Part shown: one piece after another, positions 3,157-41,635 of the stretch
Numbering within the stretch: position 1 is the stretch's first letter
How the letters are laid out: each line of letters starts with the position of its first letter
From: Candidatus Peregrinibacteria bacterium
Lineage (GTDB): Bacteria; Patescibacteriota; Gracilibacteria; Peribacterales; Peribacteraceae
Assembly: GCA_016186175.1 (NCBI GenBank)
Contig: JACPMB010000003.1
Span: 8,508 to 72,507, forward strand
Direction: 5' to 3'
Length of the DNA: 64,000 nt
Notes under the pieces: model-generated
Databases searched by the model: none
The model's input: only the letters and a program-made list of their open reading frames with translations
Told to the model about the DNA's origin: nothing
Program-made: the position numbers and the translations under genes

Positions 3157-5232
3157 CTATTGAGCTTTCCTCCACCTGACTCCGATTCTCCTATCGGGAT
3201 TCCCGCGTTGCACATTCTTGCACTTCGCATCGTGGATCATCACGTCTCCCGATCTTGTGATTATGCCTGCGATCCTGGAGGCGCGGCCGACGGACAACCC
3301 CTTTATGTCGGAATCCGGCTTGCAGCATCTGGCGAATTTCAACGGCATCGGCACATTGCCGTCAATATCCACCAATGAATCTTTGCGCTGAAAACGCTGC
3401 CTGCCCGCCGAAACCTTGCTTGCCGGCCATAGCTCAAGCGACGGCTGGGCGAAGGCGTACTTGCCAGACGATTGGCCGGGGGCCCTCCCGTCCGCAAGTC
3501 GCGTAACAAGCGAAGTGCGCGCCATTCCTATAGCAACAAAAGCGGGCCTGGCGTCCCCTGTCGCCGCCGCGGCAGTCGCGGTCCGCAGCGGACGAAGAAG
3601 ATCGAGGCGCTGCAGCAGCGATCCGGCTCTGTCGGTGCCCTGTCCGATTTTCATCAGCAGATCTTCCCGCTCGGACATGGAGAGCGATTTGCCGTCATGG
3701 AACCGAAGCAATGACAAGCCGCTGTCGAGAGCGGGCAGGCGCCTCTTCTTAAGCTCTGCGACGATGATCTCTTTGCCGCGTTGTATGTTTTCTTCGCGGT
3801 GGGTCGTATGGAGATACCGTTTAAGGTGCGATCTCGACGATGCCATTTTTAACAGTTGCAACCATTTCGCGGTCGCCTGAGGCGTGCGCTGAGTGATGAT
3901 TTCGACAACGTCGCCGTTTTCAAGTTCGTATTCCAAAGGAACGATTGCGCCGTTCACGCGAGCAGCGCGGAAAGTCAATCCGACGTCCGTATGAATCTGG
4001 AACGCGAAATCGAGCGTGGTTGCCCCCTCAGGCAGTTCGACTACATCGCCCTTAGGCGTCAGCACGAATATATGCTCGACAAGCCGCGGGGCAGAGCGGC
4101 CACCGATACCGGCGGAATGTTGCGAAGCGAGTGCCTGCTGAAGTCGCGTTCTCTGCGTCGCCTGTTCCGCGCCCCATCCTTCCTTGTAACTCCAGTGCGC
4201 CGCCACGCCGTATTCTGCTTTGCGGTGCATCGAGCGGGTGCGCACCTGAACCTCAACGAACACCCCCTCTGGCACGCCGGGCAGCTTTGCAACCGTCGTA
4301 TGAAGACTCTGGTAGCCGTTCGGTTTTGGAAACGCGATGTAATCTTTGAATCGGTTCGTGACCGGCCTCCCGATCCTGTGCAGCGCGCCAAGCACCAGAT
4401 AGCACTCTGCCTCAGTCTCGACTACGACGCGCAAAGCGAAAAGATCGGGCAGGCTCTCGATGTGCGAAAGGCTTTTGCCGGTCATTTTCCGGAATAGGCT
4501 GTACGGCTGTTTTTCGCGACCGTGAATAGAAGCAACAATCCCCTGCTCGCCGAGCGCGCGTTTTAGTTCTTCGGATGCCGGAGCCAGAAATGGGCCGTAC
4601 CTGTCGTGCACCTGCTGCAACTGTTCTTCGATATGCTCGGCGTCGGACGGGTACGCGACAGGGAATGCCAGAGCTTCCAGACGCTGCTTGAGAGCGTGAA
4701 TTCCGAGTCGCGCCGCGACGGGAGCGAAGAGGTTTAGCACGTCGCGGGCGACGCGACGACGGTCAGCCGGCGGAAGCCGGGCAATGTGCTCCAGAGCAAA
4801 ACATCTCTTTGAAAGGACAATGAGCAGTATCCGGATGTCGTCCGCAACGCTGAGAAGCATGAGTCGCATATCCTCGACGCTGCTCTTGCTATTGCGCATG
4901 CTGACGTGCGACAGAAGGTACACACCGCTGACTATCGCACGCACCCGCGGACCGAATTCCTCCTGCAACGCAATTGGGCTCATAGTCTTTATTTCCAACG
5001 CATGCTGCAGGATGCACGCGGCGACGGTGTCGGAATCAGGCTGGAACGGCAGCAATATTTTAATCACCCCCAGCGCGTGCTCGAGGAGCGTTACGCCAGT
5101 CCAGTGCATGGCGCCTTTGTAAACATTGTCTGCCCTGCTGACGATCGCCAGAAGCCTTTCCTGCTCCACCGGCAATTTGGCTTCGTGGAGAGGCTTAAGA
5201 ATGGCAGCAAGCGGCGTGGACGACGCGGGCAT
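3157..5232 (-). CDS. relA: RelA/SpoT family (p)ppGpp synthetase with degenerate HD hydrolase motif and no ACT domain
   Basis: APVAARLGI, RFKDYIAFPKPNGYQSLHT, EVQVRT, TGS domain (TPKG, DFAFQIHT) and ARCCKP zinc finger; start placed at MPASST. Confidence 0.92.
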   Translation of the reverse strand: MPASSTPLAAILKPLHEAKLPVEQERLLAIVSRADNVYKGAMHWTGVTLLEHALGVIKILLPFQPDSDTVAACILQHALEIKTMSPIALQEEFGPRVRAIVSGVYLLSHVSMRNSKSSVEDMRLMLLSVADDIRILLIVLSKRCFALEHIARLPPADRRRVARDVLNLFAPVAARLGIHALKQRLEALAFPVAYPSDAEHIEEQLQQVHDRYGPFLAPASEELKRALGEQGIVASIHGREKQPYSLFRKMTGKSLSHIESLPDLFALRVVVETEAECYLVLGALHRIGRPVTNRFKDYIAFPKPNGYQSLHTTVAKLPGVPEGVFVEVQVRTRSMHRKAEYGVAAHWSYKEGWGAEQATQRTRLQQALASQHSAGIGGRSAPRLVEHIFVLTPKGDVVELPEGATTLDFAFQIHTDVGLTFRAARVNGAIVPLEYELENGDVVEIITQRTPQATAKWLQLLKMASSRSHLKRYLHTTHREENIQRGKEIIVAELKKRRLPALDSGLSLLRFHDGKSLSMSEREDLLMKIGQGTDRAGSLLQRLDLLRPLRTATAAAATGDARPAFVAIGMARTSLVTRLADGRAPGQSSGKYAFAQPSLELWPASKVSAGRQRFQRKDSLVDIDGNVPMPLKFARCCKPDSDIKGLSVGRASRIAGIITRSGDVMIHDAKCKNVQRGNPDRRIGVRWRKAQ
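3400..3457. repeat. Nested palindromic REP-like elements inserted in frame in relA
   Basis: CCTGCCCGCCGAAACCTTGC...GCGAAGGCG encloses CCGGCCATAGCTCAAGCGACGGCTGG; resembles the intergenic elements at 63064-63092 and 15234-15272. Confidence 0.65.
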
Positions 5233-5374
5233 GAAGATATGGATTCTAGACACTACGCTGTTTCTCGTCAAACATTCATTGGCTTTACACAGCCATATTT
5301 CTTGGAGTGATGTCCGCGAAGAAACAGCGCCGTGTCTATTGACTTCCTGCACGTCATGAGTAGAATACCGTCAC

Positions 5375-5495
5375 GTCCGAAGACCGAGGGCACAAGGCCG
5401 CAGGCCGAAATAAGCCCCTCCGAGGAATACAGCATCGGTTACTCGGCCCCGGCTTGGTGATTCGTGCCGTGTTCCTCGCTGGTCTCCCGGACGCA
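5375..5495 (+). promoter_or_regulatory. L10 ribosomal protein leader (autoregulatory RNA)
   Basis: CCGAAGACCGAGGG...TAAGCCCCTCCGAGG matches the AGAC..GG/CC..CGAGG core of L10 leaders, directly upstream of rplJ. Confidence 0.75.
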
Positions 5496-5539
5496 ACGTT
5501 CCAAGGGAGGCTTGCGCGTGCACGCGTTTCATTCTCATT

Positions 5540-6509: not shown

Positions 6510-6725
6510 CTCGCATCAGAGCAGTTATGCAGGGCGCTGAAATGCGCCCTTTTTGCGCAATACGGCGATTTTCGCATTCATTGACGCCGTTGACTTGGAT
6601 TTTCATTGATGTAGGCTGTGGCCAGCAATTCCTTCCATCTCGTCGATCGAGCAATTCGTGAAACAGAAAGAAGGAAACAGCCCTCGCAGGCGGGATGTCT
6701 GCAATTACTTCCTTCTTTTTATTTT

Positions 6726-7019
6726 ATGGCTGATCAACAGATCACCTGCCGCGACTGCGGACAATCGTTTGTGTTCACCGATGGTGAACAGGAGTTCTAC
6801 GCGTCGAAGCAGCTCTCTGCGCCGCAACGGTGCAAGGACTGCCGCGCCGCGCGGAAAAACGAGAGGATGCAGGATCGCCAGATGCACGATGCCGTCTGCG
6901 GCAAGTGCGGAGCGCAGTGCCAGGTCCCCTTTAAGCCTCGCTCGGTCGAGGAGGGTGGCCGACCGGTTCTTTGCAAGGCGTGTTTCGACGCCGAGCGCGG
7001 AAACCGCATGGCTGCGTGA
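6726..7019 (+). CDS. Zinc-ribbon protein with CxxC-x17-CxxC domain
   Basis: CRDCGQSFVFTDGEQEFY...PQRCKDCR followed by CGKCG..CQVPFKP...RPVLCKAC. Confidence 0.9.
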   Translation: MADQQITCRDCGQSFVFTDGEQEFYASKQLSAPQRCKDCRAARKNERMQDRQMHDAVCGKCGAQCQVPFKPRSVEEGGRPVLCKACFDAERGNRMAA

Positions 7020-7020
7020 G

Positions 7021-7076
7021 GTCCCTCGTACGCTAGCCCTTCGACTACGCTCGGGGCGAGCTACTCGGGACGACAC
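7021..7076 (-). repeat. Nested REP-like element (GTCGTCCCGAGTAGC family enclosing CCCGAGCGTAGTCGAAGGG)
   Basis: GTCCCTCGTACG...CCCTTCGACTACGCTCGGGG...CTACTCGGGACGAC; related ends at 14529, 27322, 41322 and 58778. Confidence 0.75.
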
Positions 7077-7104
7077 GGAATGCTCAACAATTGAGTCATT
7101 CACG

Positions 7105-7132
7105 AAAAACCCCCGCGAGGGGGTTTTTCTTT
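7105..7132. terminator. Intrinsic terminator
   Basis: AAAAACCCCC GCGA GGGGGTTTTT hairpin with T-tract after the zinc-ribbon gene. Confidence 0.8.
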
Positions 7133-7179
7133 GGAATCCATGCCATTTTGTTGTTTTGTCGTCGGCGTAGGATGGATGT

Positions 7180-11581: not shown

Positions 11582-11797
11582 GGAACCTCTGAATGTAAAC
11601 ATGCCATGCGGAATAAATTCCGCATTCATTCATCGCAACCGTTAACCGCCGATTTACCTGTGGTGAGCTCCGTCGAACCAAATCGGCGGTTAACGTATGG
11701 GATAACACGGCGAATTACCTGTGGTGAGCTCTGTCGAACCAATTCGCCAACATACGGTGCAATCAAAGGTGTTGGTTGAGCATTTTTCAGAGGTTCC
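11582..11797. mobile_element. MITE-like element filling the lexA-valS gap
   Basis: Terminal inverted repeats GGAACCTCTGAA...TTCAGAGGTTCC; the same ends occur at 50162/50209-50329; two internal hairpins carry a REP motif in their loops. Confidence 0.7.
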
Positions 11798-14503: not shown

Positions 14504-14528
14504 TGGACGGCAGTTTAGTGTTTTTTTG

Positions 14529-14571
14529 TCATTCCGAGTAGCCCCGCACCTTTCCGCAGAAGGGTGCGGGA
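14529..14571 (+). repeat. Dispersed repeat, near-identical to 27322-27364
   Basis: GTCATTCCGAGTAGCCCCGCACCTTTCCGCAGAAGGGTGCGGG versus GTCATCCCGAGTAGCCTCGCACCTTCCCGCAGAAGGGCGCAGA. Confidence 0.8.
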
Positions 14572-14610
14572 CATAAACGCTCAAATGTGATATACTGGCG
14601 GGAAATCTCC

Positions 14611-15374: not shown

Positions 15375-17636
15375 TCATCGCCTTGACGGCCCCCTTCTCG
15401 GTCCCCCAAATCCTCCACTCGGCCGTCCCCCGAACCCTCCGGATCGCGGAGGAAGCGGCGTCCAGCCTGCGGGTGGCGCCGTCATCTGCTTGAGCGACAT
15501 GCGCGTCTTGCCCTCGATCGGATCGTACTCGATGCATTTGGCCTCGACCTCCTGACCGAGTTTTAGAATGTCTTCAACCCGTTCGGTGCGTCCCCATTGC
15601 AGTTCCGAAATATGTATCATCGCATCTTTGCCCGGTAGGAATTCGACGATTGCGCCGGTTCCGTCAATGATCCTGACCACTTTGCCCTTGTAGACTTTTC
15701 CGACTTCCGGTTTCTCGACGATTCCCATGATCCAGGATTTGGCTTTTTCCATCGCCTCGCCATTGACTGACGTTACGAACACCAATCCGCTGTCCTCTAT
15801 GTCAATTTCGACGCCGAGTTCCTTGGTGATCTTTTGTATTGTCTCCCCGCCTTTGCCGATTACGAGCCTGATGTCATCCGGATTAATTCGAATCGTCTCG
15901 ATTCGCGGCGCGAACGGACTCATTTCTTTCCGCGGCTCTGTTATCGCCTGCAGCATGACTTTGAGCACTTCCATGCGCCCGGATTTTGCGCGCGCAAGCG
16001 CTTCCTCGAAGACAGCGTCTGGCAGGCCCTTGATTTTGATGTCCATCTGAATCGCCGTGACGCCTTTTTCCGTGCCGGTGACTTTGAAGTCCATATCCCC
16101 GCCGAAATCCTCCTCGTCCTGCAGATCGGTGAGGATGACGTACTTCCCTGGCGAGCCTGACGAACCATCTTCATCGGAGATCAATCCCAGAGCGATCGCG
16201 GAGACTGGGGTCGTGATTGGAACGCCCGCTGCCATGAGGGCCAGGGTGCATCCGCAAGTGGCCGCCATGGAACTGGAGCCGTTGCTTGAGAGAATCTCCG
16301 TTACGGCGCGTATCGTGTACGGATAATTTTCCTGCGACGGCAGCACCGGTTCCATGCCCCTTTGCGCAAGATTGCCGTGGCCAACTTCGCGATTCCCGAC
16401 AAAGAGGCGGTTGCTGGTTTCGCCGACGGAAAACGGCGGAAAGTTATAATGATGCATGAATCGGATCTCGTGCTCTCCTTCCATTCCCTCAACGATCTGC
16501 CTGTCTCCCGGGCCTCCGAGCGTGACAGTGGTTAAACCCTGCGTTTCGCCGCGCTCGAAGAGCGCCGAACCGTGAACGCGGTTCGGGAGGATATCAACCA
16601 TGGCGCTGAGCGGCCTGATCTGATCTGTCTTTCTGCCGCTCATGCGCACGCCTTCCTCCAGAACAAGTCTGCGCATTTCTCCTTTCACGATTTTGTCAAC
16701 GAAAGCCGGCCCGTGGTCATGAAGCTTCTGAAATTCTTCCAGTTGCTCATCGGTGCAATCCTTCGGTGTCGGAAACTTCTCTTTGAGCTTAATGACGGAC
16801 TCCTCCATGAGCCGCGCGAAGATCCCCCGGCGGACGTTCTTTGGCATGTGCGTCTTGATCGCCTTCGTGATCTCCGGGAGCGCCCAGTTCTTAAGGAATT
16901 TATACGCCCCATCATGCGTGAATATCGGATCAACTGCGAATTTCTCTTTACCCATCTCCTTTTGTATGTCGGCGAAAAATCCGGCGATTTTTTGCGCCCA
17001 CTTCCTGCCGAATTGTATGGCGCGCAGAATTTCCGCTTCCGGCGCCTGGTTGGCGCCGGCTTCTATCATAACCACCCGCTCCAGCGACGCCGTGACGAAC
17101 ATATCAAGATCGCTTTTCAGGCGCGCCTCGCGTGACGGATTCAAAACAAGCTCGCCGCCTATTAGTCCCACGCGAACCATGCCGATTGGCCCGTCGCACG
17201 GGCAGTCGCTCAGGGCAACGGCAAGATTTGCGGCGTTGCCCGAAACGATGTCGTGTTCGTGCTCGAAGTCGTAACTCAGCACGGTGCAGAAGACCTGGAT
17301 GTCGCGGCGGATATTCTTGTCAATCATCGGCCGCAATCCCCGGTCAATGACTCGGCCGAGCAGGATATAGTCGTCGCCCGGGCGTCCTTCGCGCTTGCGG
17401 AACCGCGATCCCGCGATCTTGCCTCCGGCGTAATACTTTTCCTGATAGACAACTTGCAACGGCAAAAAATCAACGCCTTCGCGCGCTTTGGCGCTGACTG
17501 TGCAGTTGCCGAGCGCGATGGTGTCTCCCAGCCGGCAGATAACCGACGCGTTCGCCTGGTTCGCAATCGCGCCCAGCTTGACGATGAGTGTCTGATTCCC
17601 GAGTTCGAGCGAGTATTCCTTTTGCGGAGATAACAT
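15375..17636 (-). CDS. pnp: Polyribonucleotide nucleotidyltransferase (PNPase)
   Basis: Two RNase PH domains (HGSALFERGETQ, SNGSSSMA, GDMDFKVTGT), KH and S1 domains, Gly/Arg-rich tail. Confidence 0.97.
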   Translation of the reverse strand: MLSPQKEYSLELGNQTLIVKLGAIANQANASVICRLGDTIALGNCTVSAKAREGVDFLPLQVVYQEKYYAGGKIAGSRFRKREGRPGDDYILLGRVIDRGLRPMIDKNIRRDIQVFCTVLSYDFEHEHDIVSGNAANLAVALSDCPCDGPIGMVRVGLIGGELVLNPSREARLKSDLDMFVTASLERVVMIEAGANQAPEAEILRAIQFGRKWAQKIAGFFADIQKEMGKEKFAVDPIFTHDGAYKFLKNWALPEITKAIKTHMPKNVRRGIFARLMEESVIKLKEKFPTPKDCTDEQLEEFQKLHDHGPAFVDKIVKGEMRRLVLEEGVRMSGRKTDQIRPLSAMVDILPNRVHGSALFERGETQGLTTVTLGGPGDRQIVEGMEGEHEIRFMHHYNFPPFSVGETSNRLFVGNREVGHGNLAQRGMEPVLPSQENYPYTIRAVTEILSSNGSSSMAATCGCTLALMAAGVPITTPVSAIALGLISDEDGSSGSPGKYVILTDLQDEEDFGGDMDFKVTGTEKGVTAIQMDIKIKGLPDAVFEEALARAKSGRMEVLKVMLQAITEPRKEMSPFAPRIETIRINPDDIRLVIGKGGETIQKITKELGVEIDIEDSGLVFVTSVNGEAMEKAKSWIMGIVEKPEVGKVYKGKVVRIIDGTGAIVEFLPGKDAMIHISELQWGRTERVEDILKLGQEVEAKCIEYDPIEGKTRMSLKQMTAPPAGWTPLPPRSGGFGGRPSGGFGGPRRGPSRR

Positions 17637-17717
17637 AGATGAGGGGGGAAAGATATCATCCCGTGTGGAAAATCGCAGAACGATTTTCGCATCGGGAGGC
17701 TTCCCTCCAACGTGCGA

Positions 17718-18004: not shown

Positions 18005-18089
18005 GGCGACGACCCCGCCGAAGAGTTACGTATACATTGCTGATCAACGTAATTTCGGAAGACAGAAATTCTTCGGCGGGGTCGTCGCC
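18005..18089. repeat. 20-bp perfect inverted repeat with 45-bp spacer
   Basis: GGCGACGACCCCGCCGAAGA (18005-18024) and its reverse complement (18070-18089). Confidence 0.85.
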
Positions 18090-22569: not shown

Positions 22570-24858
22570 ATGATGACGCACATCTCCGATCCCATCCTCG
22601 GCCCTCTCAACGAGCCGCAACGCCAGGCGGCCATTCATCATGCAGGCCCGGCGCTCATTCTGGCCGGCGCCGGGAGCGGGAAGACGCGCGCGCTGACGCA
22701 CAGGATCGCACGATTGATGAAGGACGGCGTGCAACCATGGCAAATCCTCGCGGTGACCTTCACCAACAAGGCGGCGAACGAAATGAAGGAGCGCATCAAG
22801 AATCTTCTTCATATTGTCGAAGGATCGTCACACCTCGACTTCGCTCGGGATGACCGGCAATCGCTCGCGCGATTGCCGGTCATGGGCACGTTCCACTCGA
22901 TCTGCGCACGAATCTTGAGGAAGGACATCGAGCGTCTGGGCCGCAATCGCAATTTCGTGATTTACGACACCGATGATCAGGAAAAACTGATGAAGGAAGT
23001 CCTCAAAGAACTGCAAATTGACGAAAACACGCTCAAGCCGAGGCCCGCACTCGGCTACATCGGACGATTCAAGAGCGAAGCAATGAACGCGAAGGACGCG
23101 CTGAAGGATGCGACCACTGAACGCATGATCCAGGTAATCCGGGCATACGAAACCTACGACAAGATGCTCCGCGCGGCCAATGCCGTGGACTTCGACGATC
23201 TGATTCTGGAAACCGTCCGGCTGTTCAACGAAGTGCCGGAGGTGCTCAGCCGCTACCAGGAAACGTGGCGGTTCCTCCATGTGGACGAGTACCAGGACAC
23301 GAACCACGCGCAGTACCTGTTCATCTCCCAACTCGCGCAGAAGTACCGCAACCTCTGCGTCATCGGAGATCCCGACCAGTCCATCTACGCCTTCCGCGGC
23401 GCCGACGTACGAAACATCCTGGAATTCGAGCAGGAATACCCTGATGCGCTGAGGATCGCGCTTGAGCAAAACTACCGCAGCACGCAGGTCATACTGGACG
23501 CATCCAACGCCGTGATCAAATCCAACCCGCGGCGCCCGAAGAAGAATATGTGGACCAAGCGGAAGGGCGGGCCCACCGTGATCGTTCATGAAGTGCGGGA
23601 TGAGAGGAAGGAAGCGGAAGAAGCAGCCAAAGCAGCGCAGTTTTTGAAGAAAGACGGGGTGCCGCTCAACCACCAAGTGGTTCTGTACCGCACCAACGCG
23701 CAGTCTAGACTGTTCGAAGAAGCCTGCATGCGCGCAGGCATTCCCTACCGCATCGTCGGCGGCACGAAGTTCTACACGCGGAGGGAAGTGAAGGACGTTC
23801 TCGCGTACTTGTATGTGATTCTGAATCCCGCGGACACGATTTCGCTGCTCAGAATCTTGAATGTTCCCGCGCGAAAGATCGGCGAGGCCACACTCGGACA
23901 TATTCAGGCGTTTGCGTCCCAGGAAAGTCTCACGCTGTGGGATGCATTGATCCGCGCAAACGACATCGTCGAACTGAATGACGGGGTGAAGACGCGCATC
24001 GAGAAATTTATCTCCATTGTGAAGCAATTGCGCACCCGCTCCTCCGCTCTGGTGGTTTCTGAGCTTGCCGCCCAGCTCCTGGATGCAGTGGGACTGGAGA
24101 AATGGCTGCGGGACGACCTCGATGAGGGCGAGGAACGCTGGCAGAACGTGCAGGAATTGCTCACTGTCATGCACAAGTACGATCAGCTGGACCCCCAGAC
24201 ATCGCTGACGAGTTTTTTGGAGGAGGTCGCGCTGATTTCGGAGGTGGATAAGCTGACTTCCATACGCGACGACGCGCTCACGCTGATGACGCTGCACCTC
24301 TGCAAGGGTCTGGAGTTCGAACACGTGATGATAGCGGGATGCGAAGAAGGCATCTTCCCGCACAGCAGTTCCATGTTCGACAAAGAGCAGCTGGAGGAGG
24401 AACGACGGCTGATGTACGTTGGCATGACGCGGGCCAGGACGCATTTGAGAATTTTCTTCACGCGCAGCAGGCAGTTATGGGGCAATACACAAGCCAATGC
24501 GCCGAGCCGCTTCATCGCCGACCTGCCCTCGGAAGCCGTCGAGCGGCGCAGCGACGAGCTTCTCTCGGCTTTCGCATGGGCAACGGAGAGCGGACGACTG
24601 AAAGCCGCAGAGTCGCATACGGATATCCAACCATATCGCCAGCGTGCTGAATTGAATGTGGAGTTCAATCAAGACCTGGAGATCGCGGATGGGATGAATC
24701 AAGACGTACCCGAGCTGCGGAAAGGCTCCCGCGTTCGGCATCCGTCATTCGGCGAGGGAACAGTCCTCAGCAAGCGCGGCGACGTCGCGACAATCGTATT
24801 CGATTCGGGGAAGAAGAAGGACTTCGCGCTGAGCATCGCGCCGTTGCAAGTGTTGTAG
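22570..24858 (+). CDS. pcrA: ATP-dependent DNA helicase PcrA/UvrD
   Basis: AGAGSGKT, VDEYQDTN, GDPDQSIY, LEQNYRS, KGLEF, EERRLMYVGMTRA and C-terminal Tudor-like HPSFGEG. Confidence 0.96.
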   Translation: MMTHISDPILGPLNEPQRQAAIHHAGPALILAGAGSGKTRALTHRIARLMKDGVQPWQILAVTFTNKAANEMKERIKNLLHIVEGSSHLDFARDDRQSLARLPVMGTFHSICARILRKDIERLGRNRNFVIYDTDDQEKLMKEVLKELQIDENTLKPRPALGYIGRFKSEAMNAKDALKDATTERMIQVIRAYETYDKMLRAANAVDFDDLILETVRLFNEVPEVLSRYQETWRFLHVDEYQDTNHAQYLFISQLAQKYRNLCVIGDPDQSIYAFRGADVRNILEFEQEYPDALRIALEQNYRSTQVILDASNAVIKSNPRRPKKNMWTKRKGGPTVIVHEVRDERKEAEEAAKAAQFLKKDGVPLNHQVVLYRTNAQSRLFEEACMRAGIPYRIVGGTKFYTRREVKDVLAYLYVILNPADTISLLRILNVPARKIGEATLGHIQAFASQESLTLWDALIRANDIVELNDGVKTRIEKFISIVKQLRTRSSALVVSELAAQLLDAVGLEKWLRDDLDEGEERWQNVQELLTVMHKYDQLDPQTSLTSFLEEVALISEVDKLTSIRDDALTLMTLHLCKGLEFEHVMIAGCEEGIFPHSSSMFDKEQLEEERRLMYVGMTRARTHLRIFFTRSRQLWGNTQANAPSRFIADLPSEAVERRSDELLSAFAWATESGRLKAAESHTDIQPYRQRAELNVEFNQDLEIADGMNQDVPELRKGSRVRHPSFGEGTVLSKRGDVATIVFDSGKKKDFALSIAPLQVL

Positions 24859-25846: not shown

Positions 25847-27451
25847 ATGCGCCCGTCGCATCTGTCTTATTCTTTCCTTGTGAGTTTTCTTGCCGCGGTG
25901 TTCGCGCTGCAATGGTGGCAGTCGCCCGCGTATCCGTGGCAATTGTGGATGACCGCCGGCGCCATGGGTTTCTTGTGTTCCATCGTAGCTGTGATGGCAG
26001 ATAAAAGGAATGCGCTGCTGCCGTTCGCGATTATGATCGGCGCGGCCGCGGCCATCTGGACGGTATCGCGTACAACTCACGTCCCCTCATCCGCAGACGT
26101 TGACTTTCACGCAAACGGAACGGAGGTTGTTCTGCGCGGATTCATCGCCGATGATCCGGACAGGAGAGCGATGCAGACGAATTACACCGTTGCCATTGCC
26201 GTCCTGAAAAAAGGAGATAAGACTTTCGCGGTTGGCGGCAATGTCCTTGTGACGCTCCGCGTCGGCCACCAGGCCTTCGAGTACGGCGATCCGGTGATAG
26301 TTCGGGGAATCCTGGAATTGCCGGAAGGCAACCATGACTTCCGCTACGACCGTTATTTAAGCGTGAAGAGAATTTACAGCGTCATGAATAATCCAACGAT
26401 GGATCGCGCAGGTTTGAACAGGGGCAACGCGGTACTGCGAATGATCTACCGGTTTCGCAGAAGTATGGAATGGCAGATCAATGAGCTCTTTCCGGAACCA
26501 CACGCGTCTCTGCTGGCTGGATTGCTGCTGGGGGCGCGGGGCGCCATGCCAGAAGACCTTGTTCTGGATTTCAAGACAACCGGGCTCACGCACATCGTCG
26601 CGATTTCCGGCTACAACATAACCATCCTGATAACTGCGATGGGGACTTTGCTCTTCTGGATGCCGCTCAAGTGGCGTTTTTGGCCTTCGTCGCTGCTGAT
26701 TGCAGCCTTCACACTGCTCACGGGAGCATCCGCTTCCGCGGTTCGCGCGGCGGTGATGGGGATACTTGCACTGCTAGCGCTGCAAACGAACCGCATACAG
26801 ACGACGCGGCTCACTGTTCTATGGTCGGCGTTCCTGATGCTCGCCTGGAATCCAAAGCAGATGTGGTATGACGCCGGATTCCAGCTTTCATTTCTCGCAC
26901 TTATCGGCGTTCTGGAGATCAGTCCGCTCTTGCAGCCTTGCCTGCGGCGGCTTCCGGAACGCTTCGGCGTCCGGGAATCGTTCTGCCTGACGCTCTCAGC
27001 ACAGGCGCTGGCCTCTCCGTGGATTCTTTTTCTTTTCGGCCAGTTGAGCCTGATCGCTCCGCTCAGCAACCTGCTTGCCCCGCCGGCCGTCCCTTACGCG
27101 ATGCTTATGGGAACTATAAGCATCCTGTTCGGGTGGGTCTGGTCGCCGATTGGACGCGCGTCCGCGATGCTCGCATGGCTGCCGTTGCAATGGATCACCG
27201 GCGTAGCGCATGCGCTCGGCGCGATTCCGTTCGCGTCTCTGACTTTGACGGGATTCACAACAGTATGGATGGTGATTTACTACGCGTGTACAGCACTATG
27301 GGTCGGACGCCATGCCATTGTGTCATCCCGAGTAGCCTCGCACCTTCCCGCAGAAGGGCGCAGAGTCACCACTCGTATCTGCGAATCGTCTTCTTTCCGC
27401 TCCAATGCGGAAGCGCGACGGTTTCCGTCGGCTGCCGGCGCGGAAATTTGA
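25847..27451 (+). CDS. comEC: ComEC/Rec2 competence channel (DUF4131 plus competence domain, no beta-lactamase-like domain)
   Basis: GLTHIVAISGYN, SAVRAAVM, DAGFQLSF; the C-terminus runs through a repeat into the convergent gene. Confidence 0.92.
   Translation: MRPSHLSYSFLVSFLAAVFALQWWQSPAYPWQLWMTAGAMGFLCSIVAVMADKRNALLPFAIMIGAAAAIWTVSRTTHVPSSADVDFHANGTEVVLRGFIADDPDRRAMQTNYTVAIAVLKKGDKTFAVGGNVLVTLRVGHQAFEYGDPVIVRGILELPEGNHDFRYDRYLSVKRIYSVMNNPTMDRAGLNRGNAVLRMIYRFRRSMEWQINELFPEPHASLLAGLLLGARGAMPEDLVLDFKTTGLTHIVAISGYNITILITAMGTLLFWMPLKWRFWPSSLLIAAFTLLTGASASAVRAAVMGILALLALQTNRIQTTRLTVLWSAFLMLAWNPKQMWYDAGFQLSFLALIGVLEISPLLQPCLRRLPERFGVRESFCLTLSAQALASPWILFLFGQLSLIAPLSNLLAPPAVPYAMLMGTISILFGWVWSPIGRASAMLAWLPLQWITGVAHALGAIPFASLTLTGFTTVWMVIYYACTALWVGRHAIVSSRVASHLPAEGRRVTTRICESSSFRSNAEARRFPSAAGAEI
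27322..27364 (+). repeat. Dispersed repeat, near-identical to 14529-14571
   Basis: Direct comparison; lies in the 3' end of comEC. Confidence 0.8.
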
Positions 27452-27961: not shown

Positions 27962-28840
27962 ATGAGATCACTGTCAGTTTCATTCGCAGCTTTTCTGTTT
28001 GCGGCATCGCTCGCCGGATGTGCGGGGCTAACCGCGGACAAAACTCCACGGCAGCCGGCAACCGATTCGGGCGCGACAGTCGGTGAAGCACGCGGGAGCA
28101 CTTCGACTGTGCTCAGTGTAAACAAGCCCCCGCGCTTCACCCTGAGCTCGCCCCTGAAGGACAACATCATTCATGACGCGGCTGCCCATTCGAGCCTGAG
28201 AGGCCCGCAGCAGGGCCTTCGCACGGCAAGCAGCCGCGCTTTGTCGAAGGGCAAACTCGACTATGCCAGTGTTCTGGAACTGGCTATGAACGGGAACCAC
28301 GACGCCGAATTCGAACTTGGCGCCATGTTCCACGACGGTGACGGAGTCGGTCGGGATTTCGGCAAGGCACTTGAGTGGTACAGAAAAGCCGCATCTGCCG
28401 GCAATCGCCAGGCCGCGTTCAATCTCGGATTGATGCTCCAAAACGGCGAAGGCGCCGGCGCCGATCCCGACGCGGCCCGCAACTGGTTCATCCGCGCGTC
28501 GGATGCCGGAGACGCGCGCGGCGCGCTGCAACTCGGCACGATGGCGTATGCGGAAAAGGATTATTCGAAGGCGCTCTCCTACTTCCTTAAATCTGCGGGG
28601 CAGGGGCTAGCCGATGCGCAGATGAACGTCGGAATCATGCATATTCGCGGCGAAGGCGTGCCGTCGCAGGATCTCGTCGGTGGATACGCGTGGCTGACAC
28701 TGTCCAAAGAAGGCGGCAATCAGCGCGCGGCGGCGATGCTGGATGGTCTTTCTGGGAAGATGACGGAGGAACAGAAAATGGAAGGCAAAGCGAAGGCGCA
28801 GGAACTGGGAGCAGAGGTGAACGAGGCTGTGGGGGACTAG
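27962..28840 (+). CDS. Lipoprotein with SEL1-like repeats, carrying an in-frame repeat insertion
   Basis: LAGC lipobox; repeats such as AEFELGAMFHDGDGV...ALEWYRKAA. Confidence 0.88.
   Translation: MRSLSVSFAAFLFAASLAGCAGLTADKTPRQPATDSGATVGEARGSTSTVLSVNKPPRFTLSSPLKDNIIHDAAAHSSLRGPQQGLRTASSRALSKGKLDYASVLELAMNGNHDAEFELGAMFHDGDGVGRDFGKALEWYRKAASAGNRQAAFNLGLMLQNGEGAGADPDAARNWFIRASDAGDARGALQLGTMAYAEKDYSKALSYFLKSAGQGLADAQMNVGIMHIRGEGVPSQDLVGGYAWLTLSKEGGNQRAAAMLDGLSGKMTEEQKMEGKAKAQELGAEVNEAVGD
28081..28251 (+). repeat. Structured element copy 1 (in frame in the SEL1 gene)
   Basis: Near-identical to 33734-33875, with an extra CTTCGACTGTGCTCAGTGT REP in the first loop. Confidence 0.9.
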
Positions 28841-30966: not shown

Positions 30967-31103
30967 AGAAATGGGAGTAATGCCGATATTCGGATGAAAT
31001 TACCTGGGGCTGTTGCCCTGGAAGTGCGTAAAGACTAAAGATTTGAGCTTGGAAGTCAATGTACACGGCCTTTCGTTCACGGACGGAGCTATTATGTCAC
31101 CGT

Positions 31104-33409: not shown

Positions 33410-33739
33410 ATGCGCAAATTCTCTCTACTGCTCGGCACTCTCGGAGGCGCGCTCGCCGGTTACATACTGAGCAACGAAAGACTGCGCAAGCAAATGGCGA
33501 GCGCACCCAACGCCGAGGCGATGGCCAAGCTGCTCGGTCAGCAACTCACGAAAGACGGAAGAAAAGTCGCTAAGGAAGTGAAGGGATTTGTGGAGAGCGA
33601 GGACGTGCAGAATAATCTCAAGAAAGCGAAGGCATTCGCCAGCCAGAAGCTCGGATCCGCACAGAAGGAATTGAAAAAGTACGCGAAAAAGGGCTACAGG
33701 GAGGCGAAGAAGTATGCCACAGGCATGATTTCGCGGTGA
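33410..33739 (+). CDS. Small YtxH-like membrane-anchored protein
   Basis: LGTLGGALAGY anchor followed by a basic helical tail. Confidence 0.7.
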   Translation: MRKFSLLLGTLGGALAGYILSNERLRKQMASAPNAEAMAKLLGQQLTKDGRKVAKEVKGFVESEDVQNNLKKAKAFASQKLGSAQKELKKYAKKGYREAKKYATGMISR

Positions 33740-33875
33740 AGCGCGGAGGCAAGCACCCGCGCTTCACCCTGAGTTCGCCCCCGAAAGACAACATCATTCA
33801 TGACGCGACTGCCCATTCGGGCCTGAGAGGCCCTCAGGGCCTTCGAACGGCAAGCAGTCGCGCTTTGTCGAAGGG
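33734..33875 (+). repeat. Structured element copy 2 (upstream of pyrG)
   Basis: Near-identical to 28081-28251. Confidence 0.9.
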
Positions 33876-33932: not shown

Positions 33933-35720
<1,788 letters not shown>

Positions 35721-35768: not shown

Positions 35769-36506
35769 ATGCCCATCCTCTCAGTCACTCACCTCTCCCT
35801 TACCCTCAACAGCCAGCAAATCCTCAAGAACGTGACCTTCTCCGTCGAACAAGGTGAAGTGATTGGATTGATAGGGCCCAACGGCTCGGGAAAGACGACG
35901 CTGTTCAACGTGCTTTCCGGATTTCTTAAGCCGACGAGCGGCGTCATGCACTTCCGCGACGCCGACATCACGTCGGTCTCCCCCGCCCAGCGCGCGCGGC
36001 TGGGTATTGGAAGAGTATTCCAGAACTTCGGGATATTCCGTGAGATGACGCTGGAGGAGAACGTGCTCGTCGCGCTCGAGGCGCTGCCAAAAGAACAGAG
36101 GATGCTGCTGGGCAGCATCAAAGATGCTGTGAAGGGGACGCTCGACATGGTCGGGCTGAGCCACCACGCGAAGAAGAAGGCCGGCTCGCTCAGCGGAGGA
36201 CAGATGCGCCTGCTCGAGATCGCGCGCACCCTGAAGAGCGGCAAGGAACTGTTCCTTTTAGATGAGCCTACCGCCGGCGTGAGCCCGAAGATGACCAGGC
36301 AGGTGGCCGACCTGATCGGGGAGCTTAAGAAGGAAGGGAAGACCGTCCTAATCATAGAGCACGACCTGCCGTTCATCTCCCAGATATGCGACCGCGTGCT
36401 CGTCCTGGACGTCGGCGAGGTGGTGCTGAGCGGGGCGCCGCGGGAGATCAAGCACGATAAAAAGCTGCAGGAAATTTACTTCGGCGCCGACGCGGCGCCG
36501 TACTGA
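35769..36506 (+). CDS. Branched-chain amino acid ABC transporter ATPase (LivG-like)
   Basis: GPNGSGKTT, LSGGQ, LLDEPTAG, IEHD. Confidence 0.9.
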   Translation: MPILSVTHLSLTLNSQQILKNVTFSVEQGEVIGLIGPNGSGKTTLFNVLSGFLKPTSGVMHFRDADITSVSPAQRARLGIGRVFQNFGIFREMTLEENVLVALEALPKEQRMLLGSIKDAVKGTLDMVGLSHHAKKKAGSLSGGQMRLLEIARTLKSGKELFLLDEPTAGVSPKMTRQVADLIGELKKEGKTVLIIEHDLPFISQICDRVLVLDVGEVVLSGAPREIKHDKKLQEIYFGADAAPY

Positions 36507-36643
36507 GCCTGTCGAAAAATCGTACTTCGAGATGCCCTCCACGAGTTCAGAAACGAAGTTGCACACCTAGACTTAGAGATGCCCCTTTACAAAGCCACGA
36601 TTCTGAGGGAAAGTACGCCTGACATTCCTTTCCCCATTTTCGT

Positions 36644-37756: not shown

Positions 37757-37843
37757 AAGGAGAATGTAGCTCGCAATCAGTGCACTCATCGCAGGTTCCA
37801 TCGCCACGGCATTCGCGAATGCCGTGGCGAGCCCCGCTGATCT

Positions 37844-39683: not shown

Positions 39684-40640
39684 GTGAATCTTTCCCAAAC
39701 GGTCCTCGGCGTCCGCTTCGAAAACCCGACCGTACTTGCTTCGGGAATCATGGGCGTCACAGCCGGCAGTTGGAAACGCGCCGCGCGCTGCGGCGCGGGA
39801 GCTGTAACGACGAAGTCCATCTGGCTGCGGGAACACAAGGGACATCCAAATCCCGTCATCATCAGCACACCGCACTGGACGCTCAACGCCGTCGGCGTGC
39901 CCGACGCTGGCTATGAGAAAGCACGCGAGGAAATCGGCGAATTCCTGAAGGATAAACCTGTCCCTCTGATCGTGAACATCATCGCCGAGACTGTGGAAAA
40001 CTACTCGAAAACCGCCGAGGTGCTTTTGCCGCTCAAGCCCGATTTTCTGGAAGTTAATATCAGCTGCCCGAATATCGAGCATGAATTCGGCAAGCCTTTC
40101 GCCTGCTCCGCATCGGACGCGGCGGCGGTTACGCAAGCCGTGAAGGGCGTTTGCAAAGGGACGCCGGTCTTTATCAAGCTGTCTCCGAACGCGGACAGCA
40201 TCGGCCGGATCGCAGCGGCATGCGCCGCGGCCGGAGCAGACGGGTTCACCGCCATCAACACCGCTGGTCCCGGCATGGCAATTGACCTGCGCAGCCGCAT
40301 GCCGATTCTGGCGAACAGAGTTGGAGGACTCTCCGGGCCCGCCATCAAGCCGATCTCAGTACGCTGCATCGCCGAAGTCTATGAGGCGACCGGCGGCAAA
40401 CTCCCAATCATCGGAACCGGTGGAGTTTGCACCGGGGAAGACGCGATTGAACTTATGCTGGCAGGAGCTTCCCTGATCGGAATAGGCACCGCCGTGGGAG
40501 ACCGCGGAATGGACGTTTTCCAGAAAGTCTGCGACGAGATGCAAGCCTGGTGCGCGAGCGAAGGGGTGAAGGATGTGAAGGAACTTGTAGGAGGAATGCA
40601 TCACGCTGTCGCGCGAGTGGAAAGTGGAAAAAAGTCATAA
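39684..40640 (+). CDS. pyrD: Dihydroorotate dehydrogenase family 1B catalytic subunit
   Basis: NPTVLASG, EVNISCPN, KLSPN, GGLSGPAIKP; GTG start 7 nt after TATAAT. Confidence 0.94.
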   Translation: MNLSQTVLGVRFENPTVLASGIMGVTAGSWKRAARCGAGAVTTKSIWLREHKGHPNPVIISTPHWTLNAVGVPDAGYEKAREEIGEFLKDKPVPLIVNIIAETVENYSKTAEVLLPLKPDFLEVNISCPNIEHEFGKPFACSASDAAAVTQAVKGVCKGTPVFIKLSPNADSIGRIAAACAAAGADGFTAINTAGPGMAIDLRSRMPILANRVGGLSGPAIKPISVRCIAEVYEATGGKLPIIGTGGVCTGEDAIELMLAGASLIGIGTAVGDRGMDVFQKVCDEMQAWCASEGVKDVKELVGGMHHAVARVESGKKS

Positions 40641-40716
40641 CTTTCCACTTTCCACTTTCCACTTTCCACTTTCCACTTTCCACTTTCCACTTTCCACTTT
40701 CCACTTTCAACTTCCC
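40640..40716 (+). repeat. Heptamer tandem array (ACTTTCC) x9 plus 2 degenerate units
   Basis: Counted directly; inverted GAAAGTG units lie just upstream; the same heptamer recurs at 63930-64000. Confidence 0.95.
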
Positions 40717-40720
40717 ACTC

Positions 40721-41635
40721 ATGTCGATCCCCCTTCAGAGCCGGCTCCCCAGAACCTATCGGATCAAACATGTAAAACAGGAAACCGAAATGGTGCGCAC
40801 ATTCACGTTCGACGGCTCGCTGGGCGCGAAACCCGGACAGTTCGCGATGGTGTGGCTGCCTGGAGCGGACGAGGTGCCGATGAGCGTCGCCTGCGACGAC
40901 GGCGCGACCACGCGGATCACATTTTTTGCCGCCGGCGGCATGACGAATGAGCTGGCAAAACTCCGCGTTGGCGATCTCGCGGGGCTGCGCGGGCCGTTCG
41001 GCACGCATTACGAATGGGAACGCGGCCAGCATATCGTCCTTGTAGCTGGAGGATACGGCGCTGCGCCGATGTACTTCGTCGCGAAGGAGACGGCCATGCA
41101 CGACTGCACTCTGGATGTGATCGTCGGCGCGCGGAGCAATGATCACCTGTTGTACGTGGAGGAGCTGGAATCGCTCCCGCACGTGTCGCTCCATCTCGCG
41201 ACCGACGACGGATCCGCAGGGCACAAGGGATTCGGCACCGACATTTTGGAAAAGTTGTTAAGTTCGTGCCACCGACCGGCTGCGGCCCGACCCATAGATG
41301 CGACATCCGCTCCGCGGATTTCTACTCGGAGTGACAACGGAAAGTGCAGTCCTATTGATCAGATCTTTGGTTGTGGGCCCGAAATGATGTTGAAGCGCAT
41401 TAGTGAGATGTGCGCGAAATATGAGGTTACTGCGCAGCTTTCCATGGAACGCTACATGAAGTGCGGGTACGGACTGTGCGGGAACTGCGTTATGGATCCG
41501 CTTGGCATACGCATCTGCAAGGAAGGGCCCGTGGTAAGCAACGAGGTTCTGCTGCAATTGACGGAATTCGGGAAATACTACCGCGATGATCTGGGCAAAA
41601 AACACAGCTTCGACGCTATCAGGAAACAGCGATAA
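40721..41635 (+). CDS. pyrK: Dihydroorotate dehydrogenase electron transfer subunit
   Basis: PGQFAM, RGPFG, AGGYGAAP, CGPEMML, MKCGYGLCGNC...CKEGPV. Confidence 0.92.
   Translation: MSIPLQSRLPRTYRIKHVKQETEMVRTFTFDGSLGAKPGQFAMVWLPGADEVPMSVACDDGATTRITFFAAGGMTNELAKLRVGDLAGLRGPFGTHYEWERGQHIVLVAGGYGAAPMYFVAKETAMHDCTLDVIVGARSNDHLLYVEELESLPHVSLHLATDDGSAGHKGFGTDILEKLLSSCHRPAAARPIDATSAPRISTRSDNGKCSPIDQIFGCGPEMMLKRISEMCAKYEVTAQLSMERYMKCGYGLCGNCVMDPLGIRICKEGPVVSNEVLLQLTEFGKYYRDDLGKKHSFDAIRKQR

What the first reader, a model, noticed from the sequence alone, without database searches (positions are those of the whole stretch)
3400..41337. Palindromic repeats inserted in frame into conserved housekeeping genes
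Seen: intergenic repeat motifs or similar hairpins sit inside coding sequences without breaking frame. Examples: relA 3400-3457 (nested pair), pnp 16149-16167 (TGGCGAGCCTGACGAACCA, read GSSGSP, same motif as the loops at 11661 and 11722), pcrA 22815-22854 (HLDFARDD), pyrG 34691-34723 (33-bp hairpin) and 35461-35481 (SLRSGQ), pyrK 41291-41337, and the SEL1 gene 28081-28251. Known: Rickettsia palindromic elements add peptides to proteins in this way. Inference: several repeat families are creating new protein loops in this genome.
Basis: partly seen in the sequence, partly recalled or inferred. Interest (0 to 1): 0.75.

Follow-up and report, generated by a model that had tools for sequence, protein, structure and literature searches.

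The report
Hairpin repeats inserted into essential genes
In this uncultured Peribacteria bacterium, short hairpin-forming repeats that normally sit between genes have also landed, without breaking the reading frame, inside essential enzymes, adding new peptide loops much as Rickettsia palindromic elements do.

Summary
The window is from a Candidatus Peribacteria (CPR) genome.
- relA: 49 aa
- pnp: GSSGS
- pyrG: 11 aa and about 8 aa
- pyrK: about 14 aa
- the SEL1 lipoprotein linker: about 57 aa
- a hypervariable pcrA loop

Six of the seven sites belong to repeat families that I defined and modelled.
- **Family A**: GTCAT-GGTGAGC-N-GTCGAACC-ATGAC hairpin. Found in pnp, pcrA, pyrG site 2, and nested in SEL1.
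- **Family B**: GTCAYYCCGAGTAG-hairpin-CGTACGAGGRA. Found in pyrK.
- **Family C**: relA, and also in-frame in ligA of another genome.
- **Family D**: about 140-170 nt, in SEL1 with an intergenic twin.

Families A to C also occur in other Peribacteria, mostly between genes and often as inverted doublets. There they have hit the same protein loops independently, in different frames. The pyrG site-1 hairpin has no family.

The best reading is REP/REPIN- or RPE-like mobile hairpin DNA, filtered by selection for frame and tolerance. Three things remain untested: the mobilising enzyme, translation of the inserts, and their surface location. Literature searches found no prior description in the CPR.

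The parts
3415..3561 (-). In-frame 147-nt (49-aa) insertion in relA/spoT. Its gene-3' part (3404-3469) is a family C core, GCCTTCGC..GCTAYGGCCGRCAAGCAAGG.
   Evidence: 1 of 59 orthologs has 9 unrelated residues there; 88% over 42 nt to L078, E 9e-6
16149..16167 (-). Insertion in pnp read as GSSGSP. It is a family A core without outer stems; the sense strand reads GGT TCG TCA GGC TCG CCA.
   Evidence: 1 of 79 orthologs; relaxed family pattern; 17 of 19 identical to the L046 copy; (7-residue gap against 5yjj)
22827..22854 (+). Complete family A element inside the hypervariable pcrA loop (GTCAC ACC TCGAC TTC GCTC GGG ATGAC), read as (S)SHLDFARDD.
   Evidence: 0 mismatches; 0 of 100 shuffles
22850..22883 (.). 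Perfect 15+4+15 palindrome in pcrA. The right arm encodes the conserved RLPVM. The left arm is its reverse complement and encodes DDRQS.
   Evidence: no shuffle reaches a 15-bp stem; xLPxMGTFH in 113 of 120 rows; D[RK]QS in 5 of 120
28081..28251 (+). Family D element (about 170 nt, several hairpins) in frame in the linker of a Sel1-repeat lipoprotein.
28088..28129 (-). Family A unit (CAC TTCGAC TGT GCTCA GTG on the + strand) nested in the loop of the first hairpin of the SEL1 family D copy. It is absent from the intergenic copy.
   Evidence: 19.6 bits, E 0.0014
33735..33875 (+). Intergenic family D copy between orf152 and pyrG.
34691..34723 (+). 33-nt hairpin (9-bp stem) forming the 11-aa insertion [11 protein letters not shown] in pyrG. 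No family was found.
35454..35481 (+). pyrG site-2 insertion (GNSSLRSG). It is the family A variant TCTTCGCTCCGCTCAGGACAAG.
   Evidence: 20 of 22 identical to the L044 site-3 insert
41285..41338 (-). Family B element (GTCACTCCGAGTAG plus hairpin) on the antisense strand, forming the pyrK insertion ARPIDATSAPRIST.
   Evidence: 0 mismatches; 24.3 bits, E 0.001
11640..11752 (+). Two intergenic family A hairpins between lexA and valS (11640-11695 and 11708-11752). The cores are conserved and the outer stems differ.
   Evidence: 42.7 and 38.3 bits
7020..7077 (-). Complete family B hairpin with an A-like core in its loop. It lies in a probably spurious ORF.
   Evidence: 43.8 bits; 7030-7067, E 0.036
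14525..14567 (+). Family B-derived copy in the 5' leader of valS.
   Evidence: (E 0.047)
17652..17700 (+). Family B-like hairpin between trpEG and pnp.
   Evidence: 22.1 bits, E 0.0034
27319..27361 (+). Family B-derived copy read through as part of the non-conserved C-terminal tail of the comEC ORF.
   Evidence: (E 0.15)
36490..36528 (+). A-like unit at the stop codon of livG (TTCGACAGGCTCA on the - strand).
   Evidence: (E 0.3, weak)
63058..63094 (-). Family C-like unit at the start of orf 63061.
   Evidence: E 0.0033

Best explanation
The window's genome, and Peribacteria in general, carry several families of short, non-coding repeats that fold into imperfect hairpins with purine-purine mismatches. 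Families A, B and C share this build; family D is longer.

Inferred mechanism: these repeats behave as non-autonomous mobile DNA of the REP/REPIN/MITE kind. They spread at the DNA level, mostly into intergenic DNA and into the loops of existing hairpins, and occasionally into coding DNA. Only copies that keep the frame, carry no stop codon and fall in tolerant loops or linkers of a protein survive. Such copies are then translated as extra peptide loops, as with Rickettsia palindromic elements.

Shown here: family membership, the hairpin structures with covariation, presence/absence among orthologs, repeated independent hits on the same loops, use of different frames, and nesting.

Inferred only: that the elements transpose, by which enzyme, that they are translated, and that they lie at the protein surface.
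For: **1. The families are real.**
- Family A core: 16 exact matches in the window plus 80 loci. With one change allowed per half there are 34 matches, against 5-10 in 5 shuffles.
- Model R1 gives 33 hits at E <= 0.1 in 1.25 Mb of loci.
- The family A hairpin is supported: 74% paired against 67% in shuffles (0 of 500), and a G-C pair switches to C-G in 3 copies.
- Family B 14-mer: 4 matches in the window against 0.04 expected and 25 in the loci.
- Family B hairpin: 95.4% paired against 79.4%, covariation 0.46 against 0.17, 0 of 500 shuffles. Model R2 gives 32 hits in the loci at E <= 0.01.
- Family C: nhmmer hits in the window and L078, then in L052, L060 and window 63058.

**2. In-frame copies in the window.**
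- pcrA
- pyrK
- pnp
- pyrG site 2
- relA
- SEL1

**3. The same families sit in frame elsewhere.**
- pyrG of L044 and L037
- pyrG site 3 of L037, L044, L052 and L072
- pyrK of L002, with a complete family B element at 51.6 bits
- pyrK of L073, with an A doublet
- ligA of L078
- comEC of L077 and a GT2 gene of L044

**4. Hits are independent.**
- On the pnp tree, starred branches force at least 2 changes for GSxGSP.
- On the pyrG tree, the window groups with insert-free L064, L030 and L031 (95*) and L039 groups with L001 and L003. There is no recombination signal.

**5. Frames differ.** The relA copy and the L078 ligA copy of the same family C DNA are read in different frames. The pcrA and pnp copies of family A also differ in frame.

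**6. Nesting.** A-type units lie in the apical loop of a family D hairpin and of family B hairpins (window 7020-7077 and L032).

**7. Doublets.** In relatives, A and B occur as adjacent inverted doublets and as 230-260 nt composite palindromes.

**8. Enrichment.** Among lineage-specific insertions in 10 gene alignments, 10 of 116 carry a strict A/B core against 47 of 2320 control segments (Fisher p = 2.6e-4).

uvrC, hppA, pyrD, orf152 and livGKHM have no window-specific insertions.
Against: - No transposase or Y1 (RAYT-type) family appeared in the Pfam scans of 37 and 70 ORFs or in the NCBIfam scan of 22. Only a small part of any genome was examined.
- No target-site duplications or terminal inverted repeats were identified.
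- The pnp copy lacks the stems. Model R1 misses it. A 20-mer search with up to 4 edits finds at least one hit in 53% of 60 shuffles. Its membership therefore rests on the family consensus plus its exact coincidence with the only insertion in pnp.
- pyrG site 1 and family D have no copy in the 80 loci.
- relA's insert has no significant fold.
- Perfect stems of 10 or more in CDS are not enriched.
- 106 of the 116 lineage-specific insertions carry no strict core.
Confidence: 0.75

Rival explanations
1. The inserts arise locally, without mobile elements. Hairpin-driven replication errors (template switching that copies the complementary strand nearby, slippage) and short-patch gene conversion from other copies create palindromic in-frame insertions at fragile sites. 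The shared motifs then reflect copying between existing hairpins rather than transposition.
For: - The pcrA palindrome at 22850-22883 is a perfect inverted duplication in which one arm is the conserved RLPVM coding sequence.
- Empty pyrG site-2 alleles in L031 and L064 already read TATGGTTCA, which resembles the element's end. That would suit microhomology-guided copying.
- The same sites are hit again and again.
- No transposase was seen.
- pyrG site 1 is a hairpin with no family.
Against: - The conserved 15-30 nt cores recur at unrelated loci and in genomes whose pyrG proteins are only 68-83% identical to the window's. The outer stems of these copies are variable and covary.
- Copies sit in different genes and frames.
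- Inverted doublets and composite elements have fixed spacing.
- A purely local process does not explain any of these.
Confidence: 0.14
2. The hairpins are functional RNA or protein-binding motifs (for example tandem G.A motifs bound by a protein, or mRNA stabilisers and terminators). They are kept by selection wherever they occur, including inside mRNAs, so the peptide is a by-product.
For: - The cores are conserved across distant Peribacteria and the stems covary.
- Many intergenic copies lie at gene ends: between lexA and valS, at the livG stop, in the comEC tail, and after pyrG in L031.
- Tandem G.A mismatches are common in protein-binding RNA motifs (recalled, not tested).
Against: - There is no Rfam match at gathering score or at E <= 1.
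- Coding copies are degenerate, and some lack stems altogether, as in pnp.
- The same loop carries different families in different lineages.
- Copies are patchily present among close relatives. That suits gain and loss better than a conserved function.
Confidence: 0.08
3. The inserts are assembly or binning artefacts of metagenome-assembled genomes, with repeat-induced chimeras placed inside genes.
For: All genomes compared are MAGs, and repeats are a known source of misassembly.
Against: - Every intragenic copy keeps the frame and has no stop codon in an essential gene.
- The same kind of insert is seen in many independently assembled genomes and at orthologous sites.
- The window's proteins are found identically on a 75,995-nt contig in the protein collection.
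Confidence: 0.03

Closest known systems
Rickettsia palindromic elements (RPEs)
   Same: Both are repeat families found between genes and in frame inside unrelated housekeeping genes, where they add peptides without destroying the protein. Both include several families per genome. About 7-8 of the roughly 17 copies tallied in the window are intragenic. The review passages say nearly half of the RPEs were inserted into ORFs (PMC10969869, passages read).
   Different: - The host is a CPR bacterium, not Rickettsia.
- Families A and B are 17-55 nt, against about 150 bp for RPEs. Only the relA insert (147 nt) and the SEL1 insert (about 170 nt) are of RPE size.
- One element is read in several frames, rather than encoding one conserved peptide.
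- Sequence similarity to RPEs was not tested, because no RPE sequence was at hand.
REP sequences and REPINs (REP doublets mobilised by RAYT transposases)
   Same: Both are short imperfect palindromes. Both are largely extragenic, often occur as inverted doublets with a spacer, and persist across related lineages (PMC3116915 abstract and passages; PMC3337134 abstract). Family B carries GTAG just 5' of its inner hairpin. I recall the same for E. coli REPs; this was not checked.
   Different: - REPs are by definition extragenic. Here a large share of copies is intragenic and in frame.
- No RAYT gene was seen in the ORFs scanned.
- The window's two family A copies are direct, not inverted.
MITEs that make in-frame fusions (ERIC, BOX, Correia and others)
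   Same: They are non-autonomous repeats that occasionally fuse in frame with host ORFs (PMC10969869, passages read).
   Different: No terminal inverted repeats or target-site duplications were recognised here. The units are much shorter.
Quasi-palindrome / template-switch mutations
   Same: The pcrA palindrome looks like an inverted copy of adjacent coding sequence.
   Different: This explains at most that one feature. It does not explain the dispersed families. The comparison rests on recalled literature.

Membership tests
Rickettsia palindromic elements (RPE) | Repeats inserted in frame in unrelated protein-coding genes | tested here: met
Rickettsia palindromic elements (RPE) | Length of about 100-150 bp | tested here: not met
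   Families A and B are 17-55 nt. Only the relA insert (147 nt) and the SEL1 insert (about 170 nt) are of that size.
Rickettsia palindromic elements (RPE) | Sequence membership in RPE-1 to RPE-10 and occurrence in Rickettsia | not tested
   The host is Peribacteria. No RPE sequences were available to compare.
Rickettsia palindromic elements (RPE) | Each family encodes one conserved peptide in a fixed frame | tested here: not met
   Family C is read in different frames in relA and ligA. Family A is read in different frames in pnp and pcrA.
Rickettsia palindromic elements (RPE) | Inserted peptide lies at the protein surface and is compatible with the fold | tested here: inconclusive
   The inserts align to gaps in solved homologs. 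The relA site is not covered.
REP / REPIN | Short imperfect palindrome forming a hairpin | tested here: met
REP / REPIN | Inverted doublets with a spacer | tested here: met
   Seen in relatives: L014, L015 and L077 for family A, and L016, L031, L032, L040 and L079 for family B. Not seen in the window itself.
REP / REPIN | Confined to extragenic space | tested here: not met
   In the window, 7-8 of about 17 copies are intragenic.
REP / REPIN | Associated RAYT (Y1 transposase) gene | tested here: inconclusive
   None among the ORFs scanned. Whole genomes could not be searched.
MITE | Terminal inverted repeats and target-site duplication | tested here: inconclusive
   Filled and empty sites were compared for pyrG and pyrK. 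No clear duplication was found.

The most novel reading that the evidence does not exclude
Peribacteria harbour a class-wide superfamily of tiny (about 17-55 nt) hairpin modules with tandem purine mismatches. These modules insert preferentially into single-stranded hairpin loops and into a few specific, permissive codon positions of essential enzymes. As a result, unrelated lineages converge on the same extra peptide at the same site, for example GS(S/A)GSP in PNPase, SLRSG in CTP synthase, and the pyrK loop. The modules would be moved by an enzyme that is not a classical RAYT. That would make them a previously unrecognised, recurrent generator of protein loops in streamlined CPR genomes.
Probability: 0.35. 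Interest if true: 0.85.

Novelty: new variant of a known kind. Interest (0 to 1): 0.7.

Why it matters
CPR bacteria have small, streamlined genomes and are thought to carry little repetitive DNA. This window shows selfish-looking hairpin repeats colonising essential genes (PNPase, CTP synthase, PcrA, RelA/SpoT, PyrK) without inactivating them, repeatedly and independently across a whole class.

It gives a second, phylogenetically remote system beside Rickettsia for asking how mobile DNA creates new protein segments. It offers concrete models (R1, R2) and junction peptides to test by metaproteomics.

It also warns annotators that lineage-specific loops in CPR proteins may be repeat-derived. The apparent preference for hairpin loops points to a single-strand-specific insertion mechanism that could be identified by comparative genomics.

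Tried and rejected
- **Rfam:** only tRNA-Glu at gathering score over the whole window. At E <= 1 on the two repeat regions there was only a chance miRNA hit.
- **K-mer census of the window:** gave only GC-rich codon repeats.
- **Fold of the relA insert:** not significant. The L078 ligA insert gave z = -1.25.
- **Search for a family for the pyrG site-1 hairpin and for family D in the loci:** none found.
- **Recombination as the reason why the window and L039 share both pyrG inserts:** not supported by segment identities.
- **Greedy ORF calling** mis-chose several genes and was replaced by a curated list.
- **orf 6658-7170,** which holds a family B element, looks spurious and was not counted as a gene.
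- **The valS family B copy** lies upstream of the true start, not in frame in the protein.
- **Structure prediction** was not accepted by the tool, so mapping to surface loops stayed undone.
- **Ogata 2002 (PMC186582)** is not held.
- **Collections not searched:** No genome-wide census or search for further pnp, relA or pcrA DNA was therefore possible.
- **Literature searches** found nothing relevant: Peribacteria + palindromic, Patescibacteria + REP, CPR + MITE, Peregrinibacteria + repeat elements, and the motif strings. The Peribacter genome paper does not mention such repeats in the passages found for repeat, palindrom, hairpin, insertion and mobile.


Full report
**Origin and genes.** The window has 53-60% G+C. 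Its CTP synthase finds 80 loci in Candidatus Peribacteria / Peregrinibacteria genomes at 67-83% identity, so this is a CPR (Patescibacteria) genome.
- relA/spoT: 3157-5352 (-)
- valS: 11798-14677 (-)
- pnp: 15375-17807 (-), annotated start 17636
- pcrA: 22570-24858
- a Sel1-repeat protein: 27962-28840
- pyrG: 33987-35720
- pyrD, and pyrK in the ORF 40550-41635

**Are the peptides insertions?** I aligned each protein with close orthologs. The sources were 78 pyrG and 43 pyrK genes from the fetched loci and 119 PcrA, 59 RelA and 79 PNPase proteins from the protein collection.
- **pnp:** GSSGS is the only window-specific insertion in 753 residues. It is absent from a 95%-identical ortholog, and only 1 of 79 orthologs (P0251, 82% identical, GSAGS) has residues there.
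- **relA:** a 49-residue insertion at 3415-3561. Only 1 of 59 orthologs has anything in those columns, and that is 9 unrelated residues. A second insertion of 7 residues, GLSVGRA, is shared with the 4 closest orthologs.
- **pyr[12 protein letters not shown] is shared by 1 of 78 orthologs (L039). GNSSLR..G lies in a loop where several lineages carry different inserts.
- **pyrK:** ARPIDATSAPRIST sits in a loop where 5 of 43 orthologs have something.
- **pcrA:** the site is a hypervariable loop, 16 residues longer than in Geobacillus PcrA 1pjr.
- **SEL1:** the ORF starts with a lipoprotein signal peptide, MRSLSVSFAAFLFAASLAGC. Its linker is about 80 residues, against about 25-35 in the orthologs with complete N-termini.

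Against solved structures the inserts are gaps in the PDB chain: 11 and 6 residues in CTP synthase 1vco and 7 residues in PNPase 5yjj. The relA site is not covered.

A systematic screen found no window-specific insertion of 3 or more residues in uvrC, hppA, pyrD, orf152 or livG/K/H/M, with 21-56 orthologs each.

**Chance controls.** I permuted codons within 49 curated CDS 100 times.
- Perfect stems of 8 or more: 57 observed against 32 +/- 5.5.
- Stems of 9 or more: 17 against 8.3 +/- 2.9. In both cases 0 of 100 shuffles reach the observed value.
- Stems of 10 or more: 3 against 2.25 (38 of 100), so not enriched.
- The 15-bp pcrA stem is longer than any shuffle maximum.

Hairpin excess in coding DNA is thus modest overall. 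The stronger evidence comes from the repeat families.

**Family A.** The two intergenic hairpins between lexA and valS (11640-11695 and 11708-11752) share a 24-nt loop at 23 of 24 positions, while their stems differ.
- The core GGTGAGC-N(1-4)-GTCGAACC occurs exactly 16 times in the window plus 80 loci. It is often flanked by GTCAT...ATGAC and by variable complementary outer stems.
- With one change allowed per half there are 34 hits, against 5-10 in five Markov shuffles of the same length.
- On 14 copies the hairpin is 74% paired against 67% in shuffles (0 of 500). One G-C pair becomes C-G in three copies.
- Model R1 finds the two intergenic copies in the window at 42.7 and 38.3 bits. It finds a third at 28088-28129 (-) with E 0.0014, and weaker ones at 7030-7067 and 36490-36528. 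In the loci it finds 33 hits at E <= 0.1, several as adjacent inverted pairs.
- The pattern TTCGAC-N(1-5)-GCTCA occurs 4 times in the window against 0.40 expected.

**Family A inside window genes.**
- **pcrA:** 22827-22854 reads GTCAC ACC TCGAC TTC GCTC GGG ATGAC. This is the complete element with a changed inner stem, with 0 mismatches to GTCAYNNNTCGACNNNGCTCNNNATGAC. None of 100 shuffles matched even with 2 mismatches. It encodes SHLDFARDD.
- **pnp:** GGT TCG TCA GGC TCG CCA matches the L046 copy at 17 of 19 positions. It has no stems and R1 misses it. A loose 20-mer search with up to 4 edits is not significant by itself, since 53% of 60 shuffles give a hit. What makes it convincing is that the relaxed family pattern falls exactly on the only insertion in the gene. 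I estimate the chance of that at about 2e-4, from the null rate. In addition, pyrG of L044 and L037 carries the same element, in the same orientation and frame, at site 2: GGT TCG ACG CCG CTC ACC, read GSTPLT (R1 E 0.0011).
- **pyrG site 2:** TCTTCGCTCCGCTCAGGACAAG is 20 of 22 identical to the insert at a different pyrG site in L044 (CCTTCGCTCCGCTCAGGGCAAG, read PSLRSGQ). It resembles the piece nested in a family B hairpin of L032.
- **SEL1:** the R1 hit is a roughly 28-nt extra piece in the loop of the first hairpin of the family D element. It is absent from the intergenic twin.

**Family B.** GTCAYYCCGAGTAG occurs 4 times in the window (up to 1 mismatch) against 0.04 expected, and 25 times in the loci. 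It is dense in L031, L040, L032, L016 and L079.
- Full copies are 46-50 nt hairpins that close with CGTACGAGGRA. They contain a tandem G.A mismatch and a bulged G.
- On 21 copies, 95.4% of cells pair against 79.4% in shuffles. Covariation is 0.46 against 0.17, with 0 of 500 shuffles reaching it.
- In relatives they form inverted pairs with two inner hairpins, giving composite palindromes of 230-260 nt.
- Model R2 scores the pyrK insert at 41290-41338 (-) at 24.3 bits, E 0.001.
- The orthologous pyrK site of L002 holds a complete family B element at 51.6 bits, E 1e-8.
- Other window copies are 7020-7077 (43.8 bits, with an A-like core in its loop), 17652-17700, 14525-14563 (valS leader) and 27319-27360 (comEC tail).
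- The same pyrK loop holds an inverted family A doublet in L073 and A/B-like pieces in L003.

**Family C.** The gene-3' part of the relA insert matches L078 at 88% over 42 nt, E 9e-6.
- That stretch lies inside an in-frame insertion of about 46 residues in LigA. E. coli LigA 2owo residues 158 to 163 correspond to query residues 211 to 258.
- The orientation relative to the gene is the same, but the frame differs.
- An nhmmer profile of the two copies finds further copies in L052 and L060 and at window 63058-63094. Weak ones appear in a third pyrG site of L031 and L064.

**Family D.** This has only the two window copies.

**pyrG site 1.** The hairpin (9-bp stem) has no relative except the insert at the same position in L039.

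**Independence of the hits.**
- On a PNPase tree built without the insert columns, the window lies in starred clades of 2, 4 and 10 rows that all lack the insert. P0251 lies outside these clades, so at least two changes are forced.
- On the pyrG tree the window groups with insert-free L064, L030 and L031 (95*), and L039 groups with L001 and L003 (91). Both inserts therefore need two changes.
- Segment identities give no sign of a recombined block. Either the same elements hit the same sites twice, or old inserts were lost precisely several times.
- Across ten gene alignments, 10 of 116 lineage-specific insertions carry a strict A or B core, against 47 of 2320 control segments (p = 2.6e-4). Most insertions remain of unknown origin.
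- Further intragenic copies exist in comEC of L077 (an inverted doublet), a family-2 glycosyltransferase of L044 and hppA of L031.

**The pcrA palindrome.** Next to the family A element lies a perfect 15+4+15 palindrome at 22850-22883.
- Its right arm encodes RLPVM, part of a motif present in 113 of 120 rows.
- Its left arm is the reverse complement of the right arm and encodes DDRQS. D[RK]QS is present in 5 of 120 rows.
- This looks like an inverted copy of adjacent coding sequence. It may be a template-switch product or a by-product of element insertion.

**Mechanism.**
- The data fit non-autonomous mobile hairpin DNA of the REP/REPIN or MITE kind, whose intragenic survivors behave like Rickettsia palindromic elements.
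- Three independent cases of A-type units sitting in the apical loop of another hairpin suggest a preference for single-stranded loops. This is an inference.
- I found no transposase in the ORFs scanned and no target duplications. Transposition is therefore not shown.

**Untested.**
- Translation is untested, although intact frames in essential genes argue for it.

**Literature.**
- RPE properties come from passages of a review (PMC10969869).
- REPIN properties come from an abstract and passages (PMC3116915) and from a search listing with abstract (PMC3337134).
- The Peribacter riflensis genome paper shows no mention of such repeats in the passages found for five search words.
- Five searches found no description of these elements in the CPR. 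Subscription papers and supplements were not searched.

**Verdict.** This is a new variant of a known kind of phenomenon, in a lineage where it has apparently not been described.

Noticed in passing
window 40616-40733 and 63921-64000: The spacer between pyrD and pyrK consists of about a dozen tandem copies of the heptamer ACTTTCC, preceded by its inverse AGTGGAAAGTGGAAA. A similar inverted heptamer array lies at the window's end.
   Followed up: no
window 54942-55073: G-rich tandem repeat (GGGGAGGGGG..., period 33) lies between the ABC transporter gene and the methyltransferase gene. A 10-bp hairpin GGGAGAGGGG/CCCCTCTCCC lies just upstream at 54888-54920.
   Followed up: no
window 48246-48710 (-), 49776-50279 (+), 49542-49616 (-): Two ORFs with GIY-YIG nuclease domains flank the only tRNA gene of the window (tRNA-Glu). 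Several hairpins lie around the tRNA.
   Followed up: no
window 31059-33284; L016 53-850: UvrC is 741 aa, about 120 residues longer than the NCBIfam profile, and the extra part is shared with relatives. In L016 the corresponding piece carries a GNAT acetyltransferase domain next to the UvrC RNase H domain. That suggests a domain inserted into UvrC in this clade.
   Followed up: partly
window 41819-41854 and 41887-41922: There are two copies, 97% alike, of a 36-nt unit downstream of pyrK containing TTTCCGCAGAAA. The same CCGCAG loop occurs in the family B-derived copies at 14551 and 27345.
   Followed up: no
window 37801-37830 and 18005-18089: A perfect 30-nt palindrome lies between livK and livH. 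A 23-nt inverted repeat with a 39-nt spacer lies between trpEG and pnp.
   Followed up: no
window 3280-3300: A second, 7-residue insertion in relA (GLSVGRA), near the zinc-finger-like CC motif, is shared with the four closest orthologs only.
   Followed up: partly
L078 20157-20294; L077 20810-20896; L044 3436-3476: Repeat-derived in-frame insertions occur in other Peribacteria: LigA has a family C insert of about 46 aa. ComEC has an inverted family A doublet. A family-2 glycosyltransferase has a family A unit.
   Followed up: partly
L004, L005, L018, L045, L048, L050, L070, just upstream of pyrG: A family A-like motif (GGTGAGYGAAGTCGAACCAC) lies at the very start of pyrG in several genomes. 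In L005 its GTG could be the start codon, giving MSAVEP....
   Followed up: partly
L014 4334-4750 (-); L015 2211-2678 (+): ORFs of the '23S rRNA-intervening sequence protein' family lie about 1 kb from family A doublets, near pyrG and pyrD.
   Followed up: no
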